A stretch of 7,168 nt of DNA, from the IMG/VR virus record IMGVR_UViG_2541047698_000013, one strand, 5' to 3'. The stretch comes from a virus (Duplodnaviria > Heunggongvirae > Uroviricota > Caudoviricetes). Shown here piece by piece: positions 1 through 7,168 of the stretch. A program made the position numbers and the translations under genes. Position 1 is the first letter of the stretch, and every line of letters starts with the position of its first letter. Under the pieces are notes generated by a model. The model was not told the DNA's origin. It did not search any database and saw only the letters and a program-made list of their open reading frames with translations.

Positions 1-801
1 ATGCCACTGCTGGATAAGCTGCGTGAGCAGTACGGGGTCGGACCGCTATGCAGCGAACTGCATATTGCCCCGTCAACGTATTACCACTGTCAGCAACAGC
101 GACATCATCCGGATAAACGCAGTGCCCGTGCGCAGCGCGATGACTGGCTGAAGAAAGAGATACAGCGCGTATACGATGAAAATCACAAGGTATACGGTGT
201 GCGTAAAGTCTGGCGTCAGTTGTTACGGGAAGGTATCAGAGTGGCCAGATGCACTGTGGCACGTCTCATGGCGGTTATGGGACTTGCCGGTGTTCTCCGG
301 GGTAAAAAGGTCCGTACGACCATCAGCCGGAAAGCCGTTGCCGCAGGCGACCGCGTAAACCGTCAGTTCGTGGCAGAACGACCTGACCAGCTGTGGGTGG
401 CTGATTTTACTTACGTCAGCACATGGCGGGGCTTCGTCTATGTGGCGTTCATCATTGATGTGTTTGCCGGATACATCGTGGGGTGGCGGGTCTCATCGTC
501 CATGGAAACGACATTCGTGCTGGATGCACTGGAGCAGGCGTTATGGGCCCGTCGACCGTCCGGCACGGTCCATCACAGTGATAAAGGTTCTCAGTATGTA
601 TCGCTGGCCTACACACAGCGGCTTAAGGAAGCCGGATTACTGGCATCAACAGGAAGTACAGGCGACTCGTATGACAACGCGATGGCTGAGAGCATCAATG
701 GTCTTTACAAAGCGGAGGTAATACACCGTAAGAGCTGGAAAAACCGTGCAGAAGTGGAACTGGCCACACTCACGTGGGTGGACTGGTATAACAATCGATG
801 A
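1..801 (+). CDS. IS629-like transposase OrfB (DDE, integrase-type catalytic domain); ends at an in-frame TGA (799-801), with family-conserved C-terminal sequence continuing in the same frame to the next stop at 886-888
   Basis: 266-aa ORF from the track. DDE motif spacing is typical of the IS3 family. The ATG at 1 is probably not the natural initiation site, because IS3-family OrfB is normally made as an OrfAB fusion by -1 frameshifting from an upstream orfA that is outside the window. Confidence 0.88.
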   Translation: MPLLDKLREQYGVGPLCSELHIAPSTYYHCQQQRHHPDKRSARAQRDDWLKKEIQRVYDENHKVYGVRKVWRQLLREGIRVARCTVARLMAVMGLAGVLRGKKVRTTISRKAVAAGDRVNRQFVAERPDQLWVADFTYVSTWRGFVYVAFIIDVFAGYIVGWRVSSSMETTFVLDALEQALWARRPSGTVHHSDKGSQYVSLAYTQRLKEAGLLASTGSTGDSYDNAMAESINGLYKAEVIHRKSWKNRAEVELATLTWVDWYNNR

Positions 802-905
802 TTGCTGGGAAGGCTGGGCCATACTCCTCCGGCAGAAGCAGAAAAAGCTTATTATGCTTCCATCGGAAACGATGATCTGGCAGCCTGAGTTCACAGATAA
901 AACAC

Positions 906-930
906 TCTCCAGGAAACCCGGGGCGGTTCA
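906..930 (+). repeat. Right terminal inverted repeat of the IS element (inner boundary approximate)
   Basis: Terminal sequence ...CTCTCCAGGAAACCCGGGGCGGTTCA ends the element at 930. The left end is not in the window, so the IR length cannot be confirmed by self-complementarity. Confidence 0.5.
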
Positions 931-3720
931 GCGCTAAGAAATCTTGAACAACAGCAGGATGAACTTAATGCTGCGTTTGCATCCGGGAAAATAAATGGTT
1001 CTCAGTTTGAGAATTATAGCCGAAAAATACAGGAAACACGGCGAGAGCTTACCGGAGAGGCTCAGGCAGAGCGAGAAGCAGCAAAAGCGCATGATGAACA
1101 GGTTGCTGCTTTGCAACGTCTGATTGCTCAACTTGACCCTGTCGGAACTGCTTTTAATCGTCTGGTAGAACAACAGAAACAGCTCAATGAAGCAAAAGCT
1201 AAGGGGATGCTCTCTCCTGAAATGTATGAGGAACTTTCTGGAAAACTTCGTGCTATGCGGAGTGAGCTTGAGGTTACTCAATCTCAATTAAGCAAAACCG
1301 GAATGTCGGCAAAACAAACGGCTTTTGCTATGCGCATGTTGCCTGCACAAATGACGGATATTGTTGTTGGGTTGTCCACTGGTCAGTCGCCTTTTATGGT
1401 GTTAATGCAGCAGGGCGGCCAGCTAAAAGATATGTTCGGTGGGATTGGCCCGGCGATCAAAGGTGTTGGTTCTTATGTGCTGGGATTAATTAATCCTTTT
1501 ACCCTGGCCGCAGCAGCCGTTGGCGTCTTAGGGCTGGCTTACTATAAAGGCTCTCAGGAGCAGGACGAATTTAATAAGTCTCTTATTCTTACCGGAAATC
1601 AGTTGGGGACAACCAGCGGGCAATTGGCCGATATAGTTCAACGTGCCGGGAATGCGGCTGATTCGACAACTGGCGCTGCGGCGGCAGTATTAAACCAGCT
1701 TGTGCGTTCGGGAAAGGTAGCGAGCAGTTCGCTGGAGCAAGTGACGACAGCGATAGTAAAAACGAGCGAAGTAACAGGAATATCAACCGAACAACTGGTT
1801 AATGACTTCAATGAAATTGCAAAGGATCCTGTCAGTGCCATATCAAAACTTAATGATCAGTACCATTTTCTGACAATTGCGACTTATAACCAGATTAAGG
1901 CGCTACAGGATGAAGGGAACCAGCAGGAGGCCGCCCGCATTGCGACAGAAGCATACTCATCCTCAATGATCCAGCGCACCAACCAGATTAAAGAAAATCT
2001 TGGTTATCTTGAGACTGCATGGAAAGCTGTCGCAGACTCCGCAAAATGGGCATGGGATTCCATGCTGGATATTGGCCGTGAGGCCTCCCTTGATCAAAAA
2101 ATCTCAGATGTTCTCCGTCAAATTGATGAAATAGAAAAAAATACCCGACCCGGAGTTTTCGGGTTAGGTGGCATTGGAGATGGCGGAGCTCAAAATAAAA
2201 GGCTGGCACGATTAAAGCAGCAATTGGGCGTACTTCAAGCAGAAAAAATTGCTCAGGACGTACTAAATTCATCAATAAACGATTACAACAAGCGACAACA
2301 GGAAGGAATTGAACTCAGACAGAGAGCAGATGCCTTTTCAAAACAATATCAGACCCGGGAGCAGCAGAGAGCTAGTGAACTTGCAAAACTGGAAAAACTA
2401 AAGAGTCAGTATTCAAAGGAAGAATATAATAATCTTATCGCTCAAATAAATGAGCGTTATAAAGATCCAAAGCAACCAAAGGCGAAAGGTTATTCGGATG
2501 ATGCTGCCCAACGAATGATTGATCATCTGAATCAACAGAATGCGTTACTAAGTTCACAAACTGAATTAACCGTTAAATTAAGTTCCTCTGAACAGGAACT
2601 GGTTAAGTGGCGTCAGCAGATTGCCGACCTGGAGTCACGACCGTCATCGAAATTAACCAAGGATCAGAAATCGCTTCTCTTACACCGGGAAGAAATAACC
2701 GCGTTGATGGAGAAAAATGTTGCGATTGAAAAAAATAACAGGCTAATCAAGGAATCCGCCGAAATAGCTGCATGGCGTGATTCATTGCAGGCTTCGATTG
2801 ATAATCGTCAACAGGGGTATGATATTCAGATTGCTGGTTATGGGGTTGGCGATAAAAATCAGCAACGCCAGCAGGAATTACTGCGGATTGAACGTGAATA
2901 TAACAATCAGCGTCTGCAACTTGAACGTGACTATGCAGATAAATCCCGTGGGATGTCAAATCATGTTTTTCAGGAGAAAATGCAGGCTCTGAATGATGCT
3001 CTGGAACGAGAAAAAGAAATTGTCAGACAGAAAAACGAGCAGCTCGATATTCAGGCAGGAGACTGGGTTAGTGGTGCCTCCCAGGGATTCAATAACTGGC
3101 TGGATGACACTAAGGATATCAGTGAGCAGATAAAATCAACCACGACTCAGATGTTTGATGGAATGACCGATGCGCTGGGTGATTTTGTCACGACAGGCAA
3201 AGCAAATTTTCGTTCTTTCGCTACTTCCGTGATTTCGGATCTTAGTCGAATAGCATTAAAGGCTTCAATTACTGGGATTTTCGACAGCATTAGTAACAGT
3301 TCTTCTGGGGGGATTTTAGGAACTATCGGGAGTGCTATTAGTAAATTTATTCCGAATGCAAAGGGCGGTGTTTATGAGTCTCCGTCATTGAACACGTATT
3401 CGAACGGTATTTATGATTCCCCGCAATTTTTTGCTTTTGCAAGAGGGGCTGGTGTTTTTGGTGAGGCTGGTCCGGAAGCCATTATGCCATTAACACGAAC
3501 TTCCGATGGTTCTCTTGGTGTCAGAGCTGTTAATAGTAAAAGTGGTAATGGAGGCGGAGATATTACCTATGCCCCTGTATACCAAATCACTATTCAAAAT
3601 GACGGCCAGAATGGAGAGATTGGCCCTCAGGCAATAAAAGCACTTATGGGGATGGTTGATCAGCGGGTGCAGGGCAATCTGTTAAATATGCGACGTGATG
3701 GGGGAATGTTAAGTGGCTAA
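931..3720 (+). CDS. H: Tail length tape measure protein (lambda gpH-like), C-terminal portion; 5' end apparently severed by the IS insertion (probable pseudogene)
   Basis: Frame 1 is open from the IS junction to the TAA at 3718-3720, with no ATG/GTG/TTG before the TTG at 1111 (first ATG at 1207); frames 2 and 3 have stops at 935 and 945. The translation carries the conserved tape-measure motif [41 protein letters not shown] (lambda H: [13 protein letters not shown]...QSPWLILLQQGGQVKDSFGG) and a lambda-H-like C-terminus (...[16 protein letters not shown]...[10 protein letters not shown]). The central region is long, charged and Q/E/K/R-rich, typical of tape measure proteins. Confidence 0.9.
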
Positions 3721-4051
3721 TACGGAAGAATTTCACTGGTTACCAGAGGATGGAATGAAAACAGAAAATAAACCATCGATAAAAACTGTAAGATTTGGCG
3801 ATGGTTATGAGCAACGAAGTCCAAATGGACTTAATCATTCTCTGCGCGTTTTCACCTGTGATTTCAAAGTTGAGGCGAATGAACGTGATTCATTTGAAAA
3901 ATTTTTAGCCCGGCATGAAGGCTATAAATCTTTTTTTTGGCGCCCGCCGGGTATTAACAGAAAAATCAGAGTGGTGTGTCGAACGTGGTCAGCGACAGAA
4001 CATATCACCTATACCGATTTTTCGTGTCAGTTTGACGAAGTGGTGATCTGA
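3713..4051 (+). CDS. M: Minor tail protein M (lambda gpM-like)
   Basis: 112-aa ORF with ...[16 protein letters not shown]...[16 protein letters not shown]...FDEVVI, matching lambda M (...VRFGDGYSQRAPAGLN...FLEEHGGWKSFLWTPP...FEQVVN). The GTG start at 3713 overlaps the H stop (GTGGCTAA). An alternative ATG at 3755, preceded by GAGGA, would give MKTENKP..., which resembles the lambda M N-terminus MKTFRWK. Confidence 0.85.
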
Positions 4052-4749
4052 TGCAGGACATACAACAGGAAACGCTGAATGAATGCATTCGTGCGGAGCA
4101 GTCGGCCAGCGTGGTGCTCTGGGAAATCGACCTGACAGAGGTAGGCGGGGATCGCTACTTTTTCTGTAATGAGCAGAACGAAAAAGGTGAGTCTGTCACC
4201 TGGCAGAGTCGGCAGTATCAGGCCTATCCCATTCAGGGGAGTGGATTTGAGATGAACGGCAAGGGCAGTGCTGCCCGTCCGACACTGGCGGTCTCTAACC
4301 TGCACGGCATGATCACCGGGATGGCGGAAGATCTGCAGAGTCTGGTCGGCGGAACGGTGGTCCGGCGTAAGGTTTACGCCCGCTTTCTGGATGCGGTGAA
4401 CTTCGTCAACGGAAACAGCGAAGCCGATCCGGAGCAGGAGGTGATCAGCCGCTGGCGCATCGAGCAGTGCAGCGAACTGAGCGCGGTCAGTGCCTCTTTT
4501 GTACTGTCCACGCCGACTGAAACGGATGGCGCTGTTTTTCCGGGACGTATCATGCTGGCCAACACCTGCACCTGGACCTATCGCGGCGATGAGTGCGGTT
4601 ATAGCGGTCCGGCGGTCGCGGATGAATATGACCAGCCGACGTCCGATATCACGAAGGATAAATGCAGCAAATGCCTGAGTGGCTGTAAGTTTCGCAATAA
4701 TGTCGGCAACTTTGGCAGCTTCCTTTCCATTAACAAACTTTCGCAGTAA
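4051..4749 (+). CDS. L: Minor tail protein L (lambda gpL-like; tail tip assembly)
   Basis: 232-aa ORF, near-identical over its length to lambda L as I recall it (MQDI.QETLNEC.RAEQSASVVLWEIDLTEVGG.RYFFCNEQNEKGE... ending KCSKCLSGCKFRNNVGNFG.FLSINKLSQ), including the C-terminal Cys cluster. Its ATG overlaps the M stop (TGATG). Confidence 0.95.
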   Translation: MQDIQQETLNECIRAEQSASVVLWEIDLTEVGGDRYFFCNEQNEKGESVTWQSRQYQAYPIQGSGFEMNGKGSAARPTLAVSNLHGMITGMAEDLQSLVGGTVVRRKVYARFLDAVNFVNGNSEADPEQEVISRWRIEQCSELSAVSASFVLSTPTETDGAVFPGRIMLANTCTWTYRGDECGYSGPAVADEYDQPTSDITKDKCSKCLSGCKFRNNVGNFGSFLSINKLSQ

Positions 4750-4754
4750 ATCCC

Positions 4755-5498
4755 ATGACAGAGACAGAATCAGCGATTCTGGCGCACGCCCGGCGATGTG
4801 CGCCAGCGGAGTCGTGCGGCTTCGTGGTGAGAACGCCGGAGGAGGAAAGATATTTTCCCTGCGTGAATATCTCCGGTGAGCCGGAGGAGTATTTCCGGAT
4901 GTCGCCGGAGGACTGGCTGAGTGCAGAAATGCAGGGAGAGATTGTGGCGCTGGTCCACAGCCACCCCGGTGGTCTGCCCTGGCTGAGTGAGGCCGACCGG
5001 CGGCTGCAGGTACAGAGTGATTTGCCGTGGTGGCTGGTCTGCCGGGGGGCGATTCATAAATTCCGCTGTGTGCCGCATCTCACCGGGCGGCGCTTTGAGC
5101 ACGGGGTAACGGACTGTTACACGCTGTTCCGGGACGCTTACCATCTGGCGGGAATTGAGATGCCGGATTTTCATCGCGGGGATGACTGGTGGCGTAACGG
5201 TCAGAATCTCTATCTGGATAATCTGGAGGCCACAGGGCTGTATCAGGTGCCGTTGTCAGCGGCGCAGCCGGGCGATGTGCTGCTGTGCTGTTTTGGTTCA
5301 TCGGTGCCGAATCATGCCGCCATTTACTGTGGTGACAGCGAGCTGCTGCACCATATTCCTGAACAACTGAGCAAACGAGAGAGGTACACCGACAAATGGC
5401 AGCGACGCACACACTCCCTCTGGCGTCACCGGGCATGGCACGCATCTGCCTTTACGGGGATTTACAACGATTTGGCCGCCGCATCGACCTTCGAGTGA
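4755..5498 (+). CDS. K: Tail assembly protein K (lambda gpK-like), with an N-terminal JAB/MPN-type metalloprotease motif and a C-terminal NlpC/P60-type Cys/His peptidase region
   Basis: 247-aa ORF. It contains the JAMM signature H-x-H-x7-S-x2-D (HSHPGGLPWLSEAD, nt 4956-4997) with a conserved upstream Glu (AESCGF), and a downstream Cys (VTDCYTLF, codon at 5115-5117) plus His residues (PNHAAIY, LLHH) consistent with NlpC/P60. It starts 5 nt after the L stop. Confidence 0.9.
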   Translation: MTETESAILAHARRCAPAESCGFVVRTPEEERYFPCVNISGEPEEYFRMSPEDWLSAEMQGEIVALVHSHPGGLPWLSEADRRLQVQSDLPWWLVCRGAIHKFRCVPHLTGRRFEHGVTDCYTLFRDAYHLAGIEMPDFHRGDDWWRNGQNLYLDNLEATGLYQVPLSAAQPGDVLLCCFGSSVPNHAAIYCGDSELLHHIPEQLSKRERYTDKWQRRTHSLWRHRAWHASAFTGIYNDLAAASTFE

Positions 5499-6037
5499 AA
5501 ACGGGGTCCGAAGCCATCCGGGCGCTGGCCATGCAGATCCCGGCATTTCGTCAGAAACTGAGCGACGGCTGGTACCAGGTACGCATTGCCGGGCGTGATG
5601 CAGGTGAAACCGAATTGTCTGCCCGTCTTAATGAGCCGCTGGAAAATGGTGCCGTGATCCATATCGTGCCGCGTCTGGCAGGAGCCAAAAGTGGCGGTGT
5701 GTTTCAGGCTGTGCTGGGGGCGGCTGTTATGGCGGTTGCTATATGGATGCCGGGGGTAGGAATTATGGCGAGTAATCTGCTGTTTTCTCTCGGTGCCAGT
5801 ATGACGCTTGGCGGTGTTGCACAGATGCTGGCCCCTAAACCCAAAACCCCCCGCACACAGACAACGGATAACGGCAAACAGAACACCTATTTTTCTTCAC
5901 TGGATAACATGGTTGCCCAGGGCAATGTTCTGCCGGTTCTGTACGGTGAAATGCGCGTGGGGTCACGCGTGGTTTCTCAGGAGATCAGCACGGCAGACGA
6001 AGGGGATGGTGGTCAGGTTGTGGTGATTGGTCGCTGA
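5396..6037 (+). CDS. I: Tail assembly protein I (lambda gpI-like)
   Basis: 213-aa ORF. The N-terminus MAATHTLPLASPGMARICLYGDLQRFGRRIDLRVKTG and the C-terminus ...TPRTQTTDNGKQNTYFSSLDNMVAQGNVLPVLYGEMRVGSRVVSQEISTADEGDGGQVVVIGR match lambda I as recalled. It overlaps the 3' end of K by 103 nt in a different frame, as in lambda. Confidence 0.9.
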   Translation: MAATHTLPLASPGMARICLYGDLQRFGRRIDLRVKTGSEAIRALAMQIPAFRQKLSDGWYQVRIAGRDAGETELSARLNEPLENGAVIHIVPRLAGAKSGGVFQAVLGAAVMAVAIWMPGVGIMASNLLFSLGASMTLGGVAQMLAPKPKTPRTQTTDNGKQNTYFSSLDNMVAQGNVLPVLYGEMRVGSRVVSQEISTADEGDGGQVVVIGR

Positions 6038-6055
6038 TGCAAAATGTTTTATGTG

Positions 6056-6085
6056 AAACCGCCTCCGGGCGGTTTTATCGTTTAT
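6056..6085 (+). terminator. Candidate stem-loop / weak intrinsic terminator-like structure in the I-J intergenic region
   Basis: AAACCGCC (6056-6063), loop TCCG, GGCGGTTT (6068-6075) form a perfect 8-bp stem, followed by a T-rich but interrupted tract TTATCGTTTAT. It lies in the only sizeable intergenic gap of the operon (6038-6097). Confidence 0.25.
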
Positions 6086-6097
6086 GGAGCATGACGA

Positions 6098-7168
6098 ATG
6101 GGTAAAGGCAGCAGTAAGGGGCATACCCCGCGCGAAGCGAAGGACAACCTGAAGTCCACGCAGCTGCTGAGTGTGATCGATGCCATCAGCGAAGGGCCGG
6201 TTGAAGGTCCGGTGGATGGATTAAAAAGCGTGCTGCTGAACAGTACGCCGGTGCTGGACAGTGAGGGGAATACCAATATATCCGGCGTCACGGTGGTGTT
6301 CCGGGCCGGTGAGCAGGAGCAGACACCGCCGGAGGGATTTGAATCCTCCGGCTCCGAGACGGTGCTGGGTACGGAAGTGAAGTACGACACGCCGATTACC
6401 CGGACCATCACGTCGGCAAACATCGACCGTCTGCGCTTTACCTTCGGTGTGCAGGCACTGGTGGAAACCACCTCAAAGGGGGACCGGAATCCGTCGGAAG
6501 TCCGCCTGCTGGTTCAGATACAGCGTAATGGTGGCTGGGTGACGGAAAAAGACATCACCATTAAAGGCAAAACCACCTCACAGTATCTGGCCTCGGTGGT
6601 GGTGGGTGACCTGCCGCCGCGTCCGTTCAATATCCGGATGCGCAGGATGACGCCGGACAGCACCACAGACCAGCTGCAGAACAAAACGCTCTGGTCGTCA
6701 TACACCGAAATCATCGATGTGAAACAGTGCTACCCGAACACGGCACTGGTCGGCGTACAGGTGGATTCGGAGCAGTTCGGCAGCCAGCAGGTGAGCCGTA
6801 ATTATCATCTGCGCGGGCGTATTCTGCAGGTGCCGTCGAACTATAACCCGCAGACTCGGCAATACAGCGGTATCTGGGACGGAACGTTTAAGCCAGCATA
6901 CAGCAATAACATGGCCTGGTGTCTGTGGGATATGCTGACCCATCCACGCTACGGCATGGGGAAACGTCTTGGTGCGGCGGATGTGGACAAATGGGCGCTG
7001 TATGTCATCGGCCAGTACTGCGACCAGTCAGTGCCGGACGGCTTTGGCGGCACGGAGCCGCGCATCACCTGTAATGCGTACCTGACCACACAGCGCAAGG
7101 CGTGGGATGTGCTCAGTGATTTCTGCTCGGCGATGCGCTGTATGCCGGTATGGAACGGGCAGACGCTG
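6098..7168 (+). CDS. J: Host specificity protein J / tail tip (central fibre) protein, N-terminal 357 codons; continues beyond the window
   Basis: ATG at 6098 is preceded by GGAG with 8-nt spacing. The translation MGKGSSKGHTPREAKDNLKSTQLLSVIDAISEGP... matches the lambda J N-terminus essentially residue for residue. The frame stays open to the window end, which is why the ORF track does not list it. Confidence 0.95.
   Translation, partial: MGKGSSKGHTPREAKDNLKSTQLLSVIDAISEGPVEGPVDGLKSVLLNSTPVLDSEGNTNISGVTVVFRAGEQEQTPPEGFESSGSETVLGTEVKYDTPITRTITSANIDRLRFTFGVQALVETTSKGDRNPSEVRLLVQIQRNGGWVTEKDITIKGKTTSQYLASVVVGDLPPRPFNIRMRRMTPDSTTDQLQNKTLWSSYTEIIDVKQCYPNTALVGVQVDSEQFGSQQVSRNYHLRGRILQVPSNYNPQTRQYSGIWDGTFKPAYSNNMAWCLWDMLTHPRYGMGKRLGAADVDKWALYVIGQYCDQSVPDGFGGTEPRITCNAYLTTQRKAWDVLSDFCSAMRCMPVWNGQTL

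What the first reader, a model, noticed from the sequence alone, without database searches (positions are those of the whole stretch)
4755..5840. K/I pair: JAB-type metalloprotease plus NlpC/P60 in K, ubiquitin-like N-domain with a di-glycine in I
K carries an intact JAMM motif (E...HSHPGGLPWLSEAD) and a Cys/His peptidase region. Comparative-genomics work on lambda-type tail assembly proteins K and I has proposed that I has an N-terminal beta-grasp (ubiquitin-like) domain that the JAB domain of K may process. Here the N-terminal ~100 residues of I end in ...IVPRLAGAKSGG (Gly-Gly at nt 5693-5698), immediately followed by a strongly hydrophobic segment (VFQAVLGAAVMAVAIWMPGVGIMASNLLFSLGASMTLGGVAQMLAP). 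That layout fits a ubiquitin-like domain with a di-Gly processing site. All catalytic residues appear preserved, so the pair looks functional even though the prophage is IS-damaged.
Basis: partly seen in the sequence, partly recalled or inferred. Interest (0 to 1): 0.4.

Follow-up and report, generated by a model that had tools for sequence, protein, structure and literature searches.

The report
Lambda tail genes K and I

Summary
K (4755-5498, 247 aa) has a Prok-JAB domain with a complete JAMM motif (E19, H68-S-H70, S78, D81). It also has an NlpC/P60 domain (C121, H187, H199). I (5396 or 5435 to 6037) has the Lambda_tail_I domain. AlphaFold2 folds that domain as a beta-grasp whose best structural matches are CysO, MoaD, SAMP1, Urm1, ThiS, SUMO and ubiquitin. 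Gly-Gly lies at nt 5693-5698 and is followed by a hydrophobic helical hairpin.

The pair is orthologous to lambda gpK and gpI (K about 95% identical to lambda K). The K-I DNA is 100% identical to that of phage PhiR49_1.

Cryo-EM finds only the C-terminal part of gpI in virions and no gpK. [quoted passage not shown] One detail is weak. Across 64 diverse I homologues the invariant feature is P92-x3-G96-[A/S]97 at fixed spacing. G100 is kept in 22 of 64, and the spacer to G101 varies from 3 to 8 residues. The cut more likely lies at G96/A97.

Verdict: already known, low interest. The prophage itself cannot make tails, because an IS3 element interrupts the tape-measure gene.

The parts
4755..5498 (+). 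Gene K (tail tip assembly protein K, 247 aa): JAB/JAMM metalloprotease domain plus NlpC/P60 (C40) cysteine peptidase domain
   Evidence: ORF. Pfam PF14464 and PF00877. PHROG phrog_30 'minor tail protein' at 2.3e-162. 11 differences in 247 residues from lambda K as re-sequenced. Annotated as K in PhiR49_1 and as C40 family peptidase WP_001351716.1.
4764..5048 (+). JAB (MPN+) domain of K, residues 4-98. JAMM motif: E19 (4809-4811), H68-S69-H70 (4956-4964), S78 (4986-4988), D81 (4995-4997)
   Evidence: Pfam. Motif read against the definition. H68, S69, H70, P71, S78 and D81 are invariant in 67 homologues. The AF2 model has pLDDT around 95 here. Foldseek matches 2kks, PfJAMM1 (5lda, 5ld9), Rpn11, CSN5 and AMSH. 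phmmer hit to 2kks_A at 1.2e-5.
5085..5426 (+). NlpC/P60 domain of K, residues 111-224. Putative triad: C121 (5115-5117), H187 (5313-5315), H199 (5349-5351)
   Evidence: Pfam. D120-C121, N186-H187 and L198-H199 are invariant in 67 homologues. Foldseek matches MepS/Spr, LytE, CwlO and Acd autolysins.
5435..6037 (+). Gene I (tail tip assembly / plug protein I). The conserved start is Met14 at 5435 (200 aa). An in-frame upstream ATG at 5396 gives the 213-aa ORF used for numbering here. The gene overlaps the end of K by 64 nt (103 nt from the upstream ATG), in the -1 frame relative to K
   Evidence: ORF. PGAP start. Most homologues start at the Met14 equivalent. phmmer to lambda gpI 8iyk_I at 1.7e-107. 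The K/I overlap is also present in distant loci L004-L006.
5435..5686 (+). Ubiquitin-like beta-grasp domain of I (residues 14-97). It ends in the invariant P92 (5669-5671), three variable residues, G96 (5681-5683) and A97 (5684-5686)
   Evidence: Pfam PF06805 on residues 14-97. AF2 gives mean pLDDT 86.9, at least 88 per ten-residue block up to ORF residue 93, with the order beta-beta-alpha-beta-beta-beta. Foldseek top hits are CysO 3dwg_C, MoaD 1fm0_D, SAMP1, Urm1, ThiS, SUMO and ubiquitin. Conservation.
5693..5698 (+). G101 is conserved (56 of 64) and G100 is not (22 of 64). It sits at the N-terminal end of helix H1
   Evidence: In the AF2 fusion model the helix starts at fusion residue 313, which is I residue 101.
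5699..5836 (+). Gly/Ala-rich hydrophobic helical hairpin (H1 and H2, residues 102-147), with invariant G108 and G133. It is 10 residues shorter than in lambda gpI
   Evidence: Translation. Alignment to lambda gpI. G108 and G133 are present in 64 of 64. Helices predicted. The literature calls these predicted transmembrane helices.
5771..6034 (+). C-terminal structural (plug) part of I, residues 126-213. It corresponds to the part of lambda gpI resolved in virions (residues 134/135-223)
   Evidence: phmmer to 9e7m chains, query 126-212 at 6.6e-47. Cryo-EM descriptions.

Best explanation
The window carries intact orthologues of phage lambda tail-tip genes K and I, inside a prophage whose tape-measure gene H is broken by an IS3 element.

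I is made as a precursor with three parts:
- an N-terminal MoaD/ThiS/ubiquitin-like beta-grasp domain (residues 14-97);
- a Gly-rich hydrophobic helical hairpin (about residues 101-148);
- a C-terminal beta-rich part that, as a trimer, plugs the lumen of the tail tip and holds the C-terminus of the tape-measure protein.

K is a non-virion assembly factor made of a minimal JAMM zinc metalloprotease and an NlpC/P60 cysteine peptidase.

The most likely mechanism has four steps.
1. The beta-grasp of I docks on the JAB domain of K the way SAMP or ubiquitin docks on JAMM deubiquitinases.
2. Its flexible tail enters the zinc site.
3. The peptide bond just after the beta-grasp is cut once I has joined the J/L tip complex.
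4. K and the freed ubiquitin-like domain leave, and the C-terminal part of I stays in the tail.

Shown here: domain identities, intact catalytic residues, the predicted beta-grasp fold, conserved synteny and the conservation pattern. Taken from the literature: absence of the N-domain and of K from virions, proteolytic removal of the N-region in the F-pyocin homologue, and a conference statement that gpK performs the cut. Inferred by me: the scissile bond is at or next to the invariant G96-A97, which sits 4-5 residues after the invariant P92 and corresponds to ubiquitin G75-G76, rather than after G100-G101. In this particular prophage the pair can have no productive role, because H is interrupted.
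For: Domains and motifs.

Orthology to lambda K and I, and identity to a phage record.

Beta-grasp: AF2 pLDDT 86.9. Foldseek gives CysO, MoaD, SAMP1, Urm1, ThiS, SUMO and ubiquitin, with TM 0.55-0.70 for the MoaD-type hits.

K fold: the JAB part matches PfJAMM1 (solved with SAMP2), Rpn11, CSN5 and AMSH. The second domain matches MepS, LytE and CwlO.

Synteny: the order M-L-K(JAB+NlpC/P60)-I-J, with the K/I overlap, is kept in loci whose I is only 34-46% identical.

Literature:
- The hypothesis itself (PMC1779556).
- Only gpI 134/135-223 (or 'from 101') is seen in virions, and gpK is not detected by mass spectrometry (PMC10721106, PMC12617516, PMC11101478).
- The N-region of the F-pyocin homologue PA0640 is present in stalled precursor tips but absent from mature particles, and deleting the K homologue PA0639 gives tip-less tubes (bioRxiv 10.64898/2026.02.24.707460).

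Site inference: P92 to G96 spacing is 4 in 64 of 64; G96 63 of 64; A/S97 61 of 64; G100 22 of 64; spacer to G101 3-8 residues. The last strand ends at residue 93 and pLDDT drops after it. Both solved homologues, 9l9p_A and 25vf_9, keep P-x3-G-S, and 25vf_9 has S-G instead of G-G.
Against: The only statement that K is the protease is a conference summary, not a paper with data. The F-pyocin preprint explicitly leaves the protease unidentified, and it notes that host proteases remove the N-region when the protein is expressed alone.

My AF2 model of a natural K-I fusion gave no confident domain arrangement (pTM 0.41). The tail residues 98-102 had pLDDT below 50, and coordinates could not be inspected. 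No docking evidence was therefore obtained.

G101 is itself well conserved (56 of 64), so a cut next to it cannot be excluded. The role of the invariant NlpC/P60 triad is unexplained.
Confidence: 0.8

Rival explanations
1. One reading: K's JAB cuts immediately after Gly100-Gly101, so that the di-Gly is the ubiquitin-like C-terminus and mature I starts at V102.
For: The GG is present at nt 5693-5698 in the window and at the same place in lambda gpI. G101 is conserved in 56 of 64 homologues, and a GG precedes the helix in 31 of 64. JAMM enzymes classically cut after a Gly-Gly (established knowledge of the family).
Against: G100 is conserved in only 22 of 64, and several homologues have no Gly at either position. 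The distance from the beta-grasp to this position varies from 3 to 8 residues, which fits poorly with rigid docking of a ubiquitin-like body on a JAB domain. The pyocin-type solved homologue 25vf_9 has S-G. GG occurs at chance frequency in this Gly-rich protein. G101 is predicted to start helix H1. PMC11101478 says the virion model starts at residue 101.
Confidence: 0.25
2. K is only a chaperone or scaffold, and the N-terminal domain of I is removed non-specifically by host proteases, or is not removed at all and is simply disordered in the virion.
For: The cryo-EM papers leave both options open. Recombinant PA0640 loses its N-region to 'unknown host proteases' in E. coli. Virion mass spectrometry found only one gpI peptide, about 10% coverage, so absence of the N-domain is not proven there.
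Against: The full JAMM motif is invariant across K homologues down to about 30-35% identity, which implies selection for catalysis. The JAB-Ubl gene pairing is conserved. The N-region of PA0640 is stable in stalled precursor tips and lost only on maturation. The conference report says gpK performs the cleavage.
Confidence: 0.08
3. The NlpC/P60 cysteine peptidase domain of K, not the JAB domain, makes the cut in I. The JAB domain would only bind the ubiquitin-like domain.
For: The Cys-His-His triad is invariant. K is absent from virions, so it cannot act on host cell wall during infection. [quoted passage not shown]
Against: The JAMM catalytic residues, not just the fold, are invariant. The nearest structural relatives of the second domain are peptidoglycan DL-endopeptidases rather than protein-processing enzymes. 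The conference report attributes the cut to the 'deubiquitinating domain' protein.
Confidence: 0.06
4. The beta-grasp of I is a true modifier or sulfur carrier. After release it would be activated at its C-terminal Gly and conjugated to another protein or thiocarboxylated, like SAMP, Urm1, ThiS or MoaD.
For: The closest folds are exactly these carriers. The 2006 paper raised thiolation as a possibility.
Against: No E1-like adenylating enzyme or E2 is encoded in the window or in the conserved M-L-K-I-J module. Position 97 is Ala or Ser rather than Gly in 61 of 64 sequences. No report of such conjugates turned up in the literature searches.
Confidence: 0.02

Closest known systems
Phage lambda gpK (tail tip assembly protein K) and gpI (tail tip assembly / plug protein I)
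   Same: Same genes in the same order (H-M-L-K-I-J). K differs from re-sequenced lambda K at 11 of 247 residues. I aligns end to end with lambda gpI at E=1.7e-107. The JAMM motif, the NlpC/P60 triad, the P-x3-G-A-K-S-G-G tail and the C-terminal plug domain are all the same.
   Different: I has a hydrophobic H1-H2 region 10 residues shorter than in lambda. The reference lambda record annotates K as only 199 aa because of a 1-nt gap. Here the host prophage is defective, with IS3 in H.
TAPK/TAPI system of Iyer, Burroughs and Aravind 2006 (PMC1779556)
   Same: Exactly the architecture they describe: a ubiquitin-like TAPI with a conserved C-terminal Gly, a Gly-rich linker and a TAPI-C domain, flanked by a JAB plus NlpC/P60 TAPK and by TAPJ.
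   Different: None in kind.
F-type pyocin PA0639 (K homologue) and PA0640 (tip plug, I homologue)
   Same: Only the C-terminal part of the plug is seen in the particle. The N-region is present in precursor tips and removed on maturation. The K homologue is absent from particles and is needed for the tip. The pyocin-type PDB chains 25vf_9 and 9l9p_A match the window's I at 1.9e-24 and 8.9e-19 and keep P-x3-G-S. That these chains are the pyocin plug proteins is my guess from their names and lengths.
   Different: This is a tailocin, not a phage. The sequence is distant. 25vf_9 has no di-Gly at the equivalent position.
Archaeal JAMM1 desampylases with SAMP1/SAMP2 (for example PfJAMM1-SAMP2, PDB 5LDA)
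   Same: A minimal JAMM fold acts on a MoaD-like beta-grasp. K's JAB domain matches 5lda and 5ld9, and there is a sub-threshold NCBIfam hit to 'desampylase'. I's N-domain matches SAMP1.
   Different: Those enzymes remove a free modifier from isopeptide or linear conjugates made by an E1. Here the ubiquitin-like domain is translationally fused to its 'substrate', no E1 is present, and the residue after the conserved Gly is Ala or Ser.
CysO with the Mec+ JAMM hydrolase (Mycobacterium), and ThiS/MoaD fusions cut by JAB
   Same: CysO is the top structural match of I's N-domain (3dwg_C). That a JAMM protein (Mec+) hydrolyses the CysO C-terminal adduct is from my own knowledge. discusses JAB cutting fused ThiS/MoaD.
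   Different: That system is a sulfur-carrier metabolic pathway. Nothing suggests sulfur chemistry in the tail module.
Phage T5 pb3 plug domain
   Same: It occupies the same place in the tail tip as the gpI tripod and closes the tube.
   Different: It is an internal domain of the hub protein, with no ubiquitin-like cap and no K-like protease.

Membership tests
Lambda gpK / TAPK (JAB + NlpC/P60 tail assembly protein) | N-terminal prokaryotic JAB domain with the complete JAMM motif E-Xn-H-S/T-H-X7-S-X-X-D | tested here: met
   PF14464 at E=4e-14, above the gathering score. E19, H68-S-H70, seven residues, S78, two residues, D81, read from the sequence. Invariant in 67 homologues.
Lambda gpK / TAPK (JAB + NlpC/P60 tail assembly protein) | C-terminal NlpC/P60 domain with a catalytic Cys and His | tested here: met
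   PF00877 at E=5.4e-12, above the gathering score. C121, H187 and H199 are invariant. The fold matches MepS, LytE and CwlO.
Lambda gpK / TAPK (JAB + NlpC/P60 tail assembly protein) | Gene sits between L and I in a lambda-type tail module, with close sequence identity to lambda K | tested here: met
   The order H, M, L, K, I, J is confirmed by Pfam and annotation. 236 of 247 residues are identical to lambda K of PV340536.
Lambda gpK / TAPK (JAB + NlpC/P60 tail assembly protein) | Needed for tail-tip assembly but absent from the virion | not testable with these tools
   Known for lambda and for the F-pyocin only from the literature.
Lambda gpI / TAPI (PF06805) | N-terminal Lambda_tail_I domain | tested here: met
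   PF06805 at E=1e-23, 83.9 bits against a cutoff of 23.8, covering profile positions 2-83 of 83.
Lambda gpI / TAPI (PF06805) | Conserved Gly at the C-terminal end of the beta-grasp, followed by a Gly-rich linker and the TAPI-C domain | tested here: met
   G96 sits 4 residues after the invariant P92. The Gly/Ala-rich hydrophobic hairpin covers residues 102-147. The C-terminal part matches solved gpI chains at 6.6e-47.
Ubiquitin-like beta-grasp superfamily (ThiS/MoaD/SAMP/Urm1/ubiquitin) | Beta-grasp fold | tested here: met
   AF2 with a 63-sequence alignment gives pLDDT 86.9 and pTM 0.76. The Foldseek top 17 hits are CysO, MoaD, SAMP1, Urm1 and close relatives, followed by SUMO, ThiS and ubiquitin. 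This is a prediction, not a solved structure.
Ubiquitin-like beta-grasp superfamily (ThiS/MoaD/SAMP/Urm1/ubiquitin) | C-terminal Gly-Gly that is, or becomes, a free terminus used for activation by an E1-like enzyme | tested here: not met
   The equivalent positions are G96-A97 (A or S in 61 of 64), they are internal to the polypeptide, and no E1 or E2 is found in the module. It works like a ubiquitin-fold cap removed by a DUB-type enzyme, but nothing shows that it is a conjugatable modifier.
JAMM/MPN+ deubiquitinase-type metalloproteases | Zinc-dependent cleavage after the C-terminal tail of a ubiquitin-like domain | not testable with these tools
   Only the motif and the fold could be tested. 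Activity is reported for gpK in a conference summary.
NlpC/P60 (C40) peptidoglycan endopeptidases | Hydrolysis of cell-wall peptide stems | not testable with these tools
   The fold and triad are met. However, K is cytoplasmic and is not a virion component, so the real substrate is unknown.

The most novel reading that the evidence does not exclude
K is a two-substrate maturation protease. Its JAB domain removes the ubiquitin-like cap of I at the invariant G96-A97. Its equally invariant NlpC/P60 Cys-His-His site cuts a second tail protein inside the producing cell. The obvious candidate is the Gly-rich C-terminal region of the tape-measure protein H (the H to H* step), whose protease is still unknown according to PMC12617516. 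This would explain why a 'cell-wall hydrolase' fold with an intact active site is conserved in a protein that never leaves the cytoplasm with the virion.
Probability: 0.1. Interest if true: 0.55.

Novelty: already known. Interest (0 to 1): 0.15.

Why it matters
For this window it matters little.

The general biology is interesting: a phage-encoded ubiquitin-fold cap removed by a deubiquitinase-type protease as an assembly checkpoint. The credit for that lies elsewhere.

Three small useful by-products came out of this work:
- The family-wide invariant is P-x3-G-[A/S], not the di-Gly, which gives a sharper prediction of the cut site.
- The N-terminal domain of gpI is a beta-grasp, so it is unlikely to be the missing peptidoglycan hydrolase that one cryo-EM paper speculated about.
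- The reference lambda record under-annotates K, giving 199 aa that lack the catalytic Glu, because of a 1-nt gap. This can mislead domain analyses.

Tried and rejected
1. Docking test. I looked for natural K-I fusion proteins so that a single-chain AF2 run could show which residue sits in the JAB zinc site. Rare singleton fusions exist (P0189, P0269 and others), and they are probably indels in the K/I overlap.
   - The first alignment (A4) was unusable because MAFFT laid I-only sequences over the K part.
   - A set with six fusions aligned correctly.
   - The model had pTM 0.41, with pLDDT below 50 for I residues 98-102, and coordinates cannot be inspected. The test was inconclusive.
2. The search for related loci with I alignments A2 and A3 failed because there was no conserved 7-10 column stretch. 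I used the look-up of encoding contigs instead.
3. Searching with a distant K (from L005) for more diverse K homologues returned only 7 proteins.
4. Programmed -1 frameshift making a K-I fusion. I is in the -1 frame of K, but there is no X XXY YYZ heptamer in the overlap, and the fusions in the databases are singletons. Rejected.
5. Virion mass-spectrometry supplement of PMC10721106. It has only one gpI peptide at 9.87% coverage, which is uninformative about the N-terminus.
6. Consensus promoter and terminator scan of 4600-6300 found nothing.
7. The Structure 2024 paper behind PDB 8IYK is not in the library. The statement 'resolved from residue 101' is therefore second-hand.
Full report
**What is in the window**

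The window is the tail-tip part of a lambda-type prophage of E. coli. ORF listing and Pfam give the following layout:

| Coordinates | Feature |
|---|---|
| 1-801 | 3' part of an IS3-family transposase gene |
| 1111-3720 | remnant of the tape-measure gene H |
| 3713-4051 | M |
| 4051-4749 | L |
| 4755-5498 | K |
| 5396/5435-6037 | I |
| from 6098 | start of J |

In an otherwise 99.9% identical prophage without the IS (NZ_AP045802), H starts 444 nt upstream of the point where the window's homology begins at nt 931. The IS therefore removes about the first 148 codons of H. In the closest complete genome the prophage lies next to ttcA/intR, the Rac site.

**Check of the observation**

K is 247 aa.
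- Pfam finds Prok-JAB (PF14464, residues 4-98, E=4e-14) and NLPC_P60 (PF00877, residues 111-224, E=5.4e-12), both above the curated cutoffs.
- The JAMM motif as defined by Ambroggio et al. (E-Xn-H-S/T-H-X7-S-X-X-D, PMC300881) is complete: E19, H68-S69-H70, seven residues, S78, two residues, D81 (read codon by codon).
- In an alignment of 67 K homologues, which includes sequences only about 30-40% identical, these residues are invariant or have one exception: H68, S69, H70, P71, S78, D81, D120-C121, N186-H187 and H199.

I carries Lambda_tail_I (PF06805, residues 14-97, E=1e-23). Gly100-Gly101 are at nt 5693-5698, and the hydrophobic stretch follows, exactly as described.

Two qualifications apply.
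- The 213-aa numbering starts at an upstream ATG (5396). PGAP, the Pfam domain and most of the homologues found begin at Met14 (nt 5435).
- A GG dipeptide has no weight on its own. I has 25 glycines and three GGs, against about 2.9 expected by chance.

**What it is**

The K-I stretch (4700-6100) is 100% identical to the phage record Escherichia phage PhiR49_1. It is 90-95% identical to many lambdoid phages in which the genes are annotated as tail tip assembly proteins K and I. K differs from lambda K at 11 of 247 residues. I aligns over its whole length with lambda gpI (8iyk_I, E=1.7e-107), and the only indel is a hydrophobic region 10 residues shorter. These are therefore orthologues of lambda gpK and gpI.

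**Fold of the N-terminal domain of I**

I collected 3,225 homologues of I from 1.84 billion representative proteins. I aligned 62 diverse full-length ones with residues 14-110 of I and ran AlphaFold2.
- Mean pLDDT is 86.9 and pTM is 0.76. Confidence is at least 88 per ten-residue block up to ORF residue 93, then falls to 61 and 46.
- The order of elements is that of a beta-grasp.
- Foldseek against the PDB returns CysO (3dwg_C, E=2e-4, TM 0.67/0.70), MoaD, SAMP1, Urm1 and ThiS, then SUMO and ubiquitin.

The domain is closest to the MoaD/ThiS/SAMP branch, as Iyer et al. found by sequence.

**Fold of K**

An AF2 model of a natural K-I fusion (P0189) gave pLDDT around 95 for the JAB domain and 60-77 for the NlpC/P60 domain.
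- The JAB part matches 2kks, the Pyrococcus JAMM1 desampylase (5ld9, and 5lda in complex with SAMP2), Rpn11, CSN5 and AMSH.
- The second domain matches MepS/Spr, LytE, CwlO and Acd autolysins.

**Conservation of the pairing**

Three I homologues only 34-46% identical to the window's I all lie in the same M-L-K-I-J order. They come from a 6.1-Mb genome record, an assembly contig and a metagenome scaffold. In each, a JAB plus NlpC/P60 K sits directly upstream and overlaps I by 13-64 nt.

**How it works, and what is already known**

They proposed that TAPI has a ubiquitin-like domain with a highly conserved C-terminal glycine, a Gly-rich linker and a C-terminal domain. [quoted passage not shown]

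Later work fits this picture.
- Cryo-EM of lambda and Ur-lambda resolves only gpI 135-223 or 134-222 as a trimeric plug holding the C-terminus of gpH. gpK is not detected in virions (PMC10721106; PMC12617516).
- Ge and Wang state that the closed-state model starts at residue 101, and that the N-terminal domain is never seen (PMC11101478).
[quoted passage not shown] The authors call this a 'proteolytic checkpoint'. Deleting the gpK homologue PA0639 gives tip-less tubes. The protease was not identified (bioRxiv 10.64898/2026.02.24.707460).

I found no full paper with those data. The mechanism is thus well supported, but not by anything I could measure here.

I aligned 64 diverse full-length I proteins and counted residues around the junction.

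| Position | Conservation (of 64) |
|---|---|
| P92 | 64 |
| P92 to G96 spacing of exactly 4 | 64 |
| G96 | 63 |
| A or S at 97 | 61 |
| G100 | 22 |
| G101 | 56 |
| GG before the helix | 31 |
| G108, G133 (inside the hydrophobic helices) | 64 each |

- The number of residues between G96 and the G101 column ranges from 3 to 8.
- Several homologues have no glycine there at all, for example PRVAGAAKNPTVNIIIG and PVLAGAKSEFTRIILG.
- The two pyocin-type PDB homologues read IVPIPTGSKTGGLFQ and IVPLVIGSKQSGLFQ.
- In the model the last strand ends at residue 93. G96-A97 therefore sit where ubiquitin has G75-G76 and where MoaD has its terminal GG. This alignment to ubiquitin and MoaD is my inference from known sequences.
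- G101 is predicted to begin helix H1, which could explain its conservation structurally.
- A ubiquitin-like body docked on a JAB domain presents its tail at a fixed length. The fixed-distance G96/A97 is therefore a better candidate for the scissile bond than a position at variable distance.

This remains an inference, and only the N-terminus of mature gpI will settle it.

**Rivals**

The alternatives, with my weights, are:
- a cut after G101 (0.25);
- non-specific or no removal of the N-domain, with K as a mere chaperone (0.08);
- cleavage by the NlpC/P60 site rather than the JAB site (0.06);
- a true modifier or sulfur-carrier role for the released beta-grasp (0.02).

The invariance of the JAMM catalytic residues, the absence of any E1 or E2 in the module, and the literature above argue against the last three.

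One thing stays unexplained. K also keeps an invariant Cys-His-His NlpC/P60 site, although it is not a virion protein. Its substrate is unknown. The unassigned cleavage of gpH to gpH* is a speculative candidate.

**By-products**

- The reference lambda records J02459 and NC_001416 lack one nucleotide at about position 14266 relative to the window and to independently sequenced lambda records such as PV340536, KT232076, LC730321 and DE3. This is why K is annotated there as 199 aa starting MSPEDW, without the catalytic Glu. In the other records K is 247 aa.
- Three different starts are in use for I: ATG 5396 (the lambda reference), ATG 5435 (PGAP), and GTG 5495 (the PhiR49_1 and PV3405xx records). 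The last would delete the first two strands of the beta-grasp and is almost certainly wrong.

**Verdict**

The gene pair is an ordinary, already known component of lambdoid prophages, here stranded in a prophage that cannot build tails. Interest is low.

Noticed in passing
Locus L002 (NC_001416) about 4267, which is lambda coordinate about 14266; equivalent to window about 4886-4889: The reference lambda sequence (J02459/NC_001416) has a 1-nt gap relative to the window and to independently sequenced lambda records (PV340536, KT232076, LC730321, DE3, imm21/imm434 hybrids). The gap splits K into a 44-codon N-terminal ORF and the annotated 199-aa K, which lacks the catalytic Glu of the JAB domain. 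In the other records K is 247 aa. This is probably an error in the 1982 sequence.
   Followed up: yes
window 5396, 5435 and 5495 (candidate starts of I): Three different start codons are annotated for I in public records: ATG 5396 (lambda reference, 213/223 aa), ATG 5435 (PGAP, 200 aa, and where most homologues and the Pfam domain begin), and GTG 5495, which overlaps K's stop (PhiR49_1 and the lambda record PV340536). The GTG start would remove beta-strands 1-2 of the beta-grasp. Neither ATG has a good Shine-Dalgarno sequence; only a GAGAGG lies 12-17 nt upstream of 5396.
   Followed up: partly
window 1-930 and 931-3720: An IS3-family element (transposase ORF 1-801) is inserted 444 nt into the tape-measure gene H, judged against an uninterrupted, 99.9% identical prophage in E. 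coli 23CRST032. H here lacks about its first 148 codons, so the prophage cannot make tails. In strain DLI.6n the same prophage carries two IS3 copies.
   Followed up: partly
window 6056-6075 (between I and J): A perfect 8-bp GC-rich hairpin (AAACCGCC-TCCG-GGCGGTTT) followed by TATCGTTT lies in the 60-nt I-J spacer. The fold of 6030-6100 has a free energy of -25.8 kcal/mol, z = -3.4. The consensus terminator scan did not call it, because the T run is too short. One related phage record (Ayreon) annotates a terminator between I and J.
   Followed up: partly
window about 5720-5775 (I residues about 110-126): The loop between the two hydrophobic helices of I is 10 residues shorter than in lambda gpI. 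This region varies widely in length across the family, while G108 and G133 inside the helices are invariant.
   Followed up: no
proteins P0189, P0242, P0165, P0269, P0215, P0222 (database relatives): Rare singleton K-I fusion ORFs exist in public assemblies, joined at different points within the K/I overlap. They look like indels or sequencing errors rather than a real fused form, and no -1 slippery heptamer exists in the overlap. PHROGs nevertheless has families built on such fusions: phrog_28576, and phrog_35166, which looks like a JAB-I fusion.
   Followed up: partly
window 5085-5426 (NlpC/P60 domain of K): The Cys-His-His site of a cell-wall-hydrolase fold is invariant across the family, although K is reported absent from virions and so cannot reach host peptidoglycan during infection. 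Its substrate is unknown.
   Followed up: no
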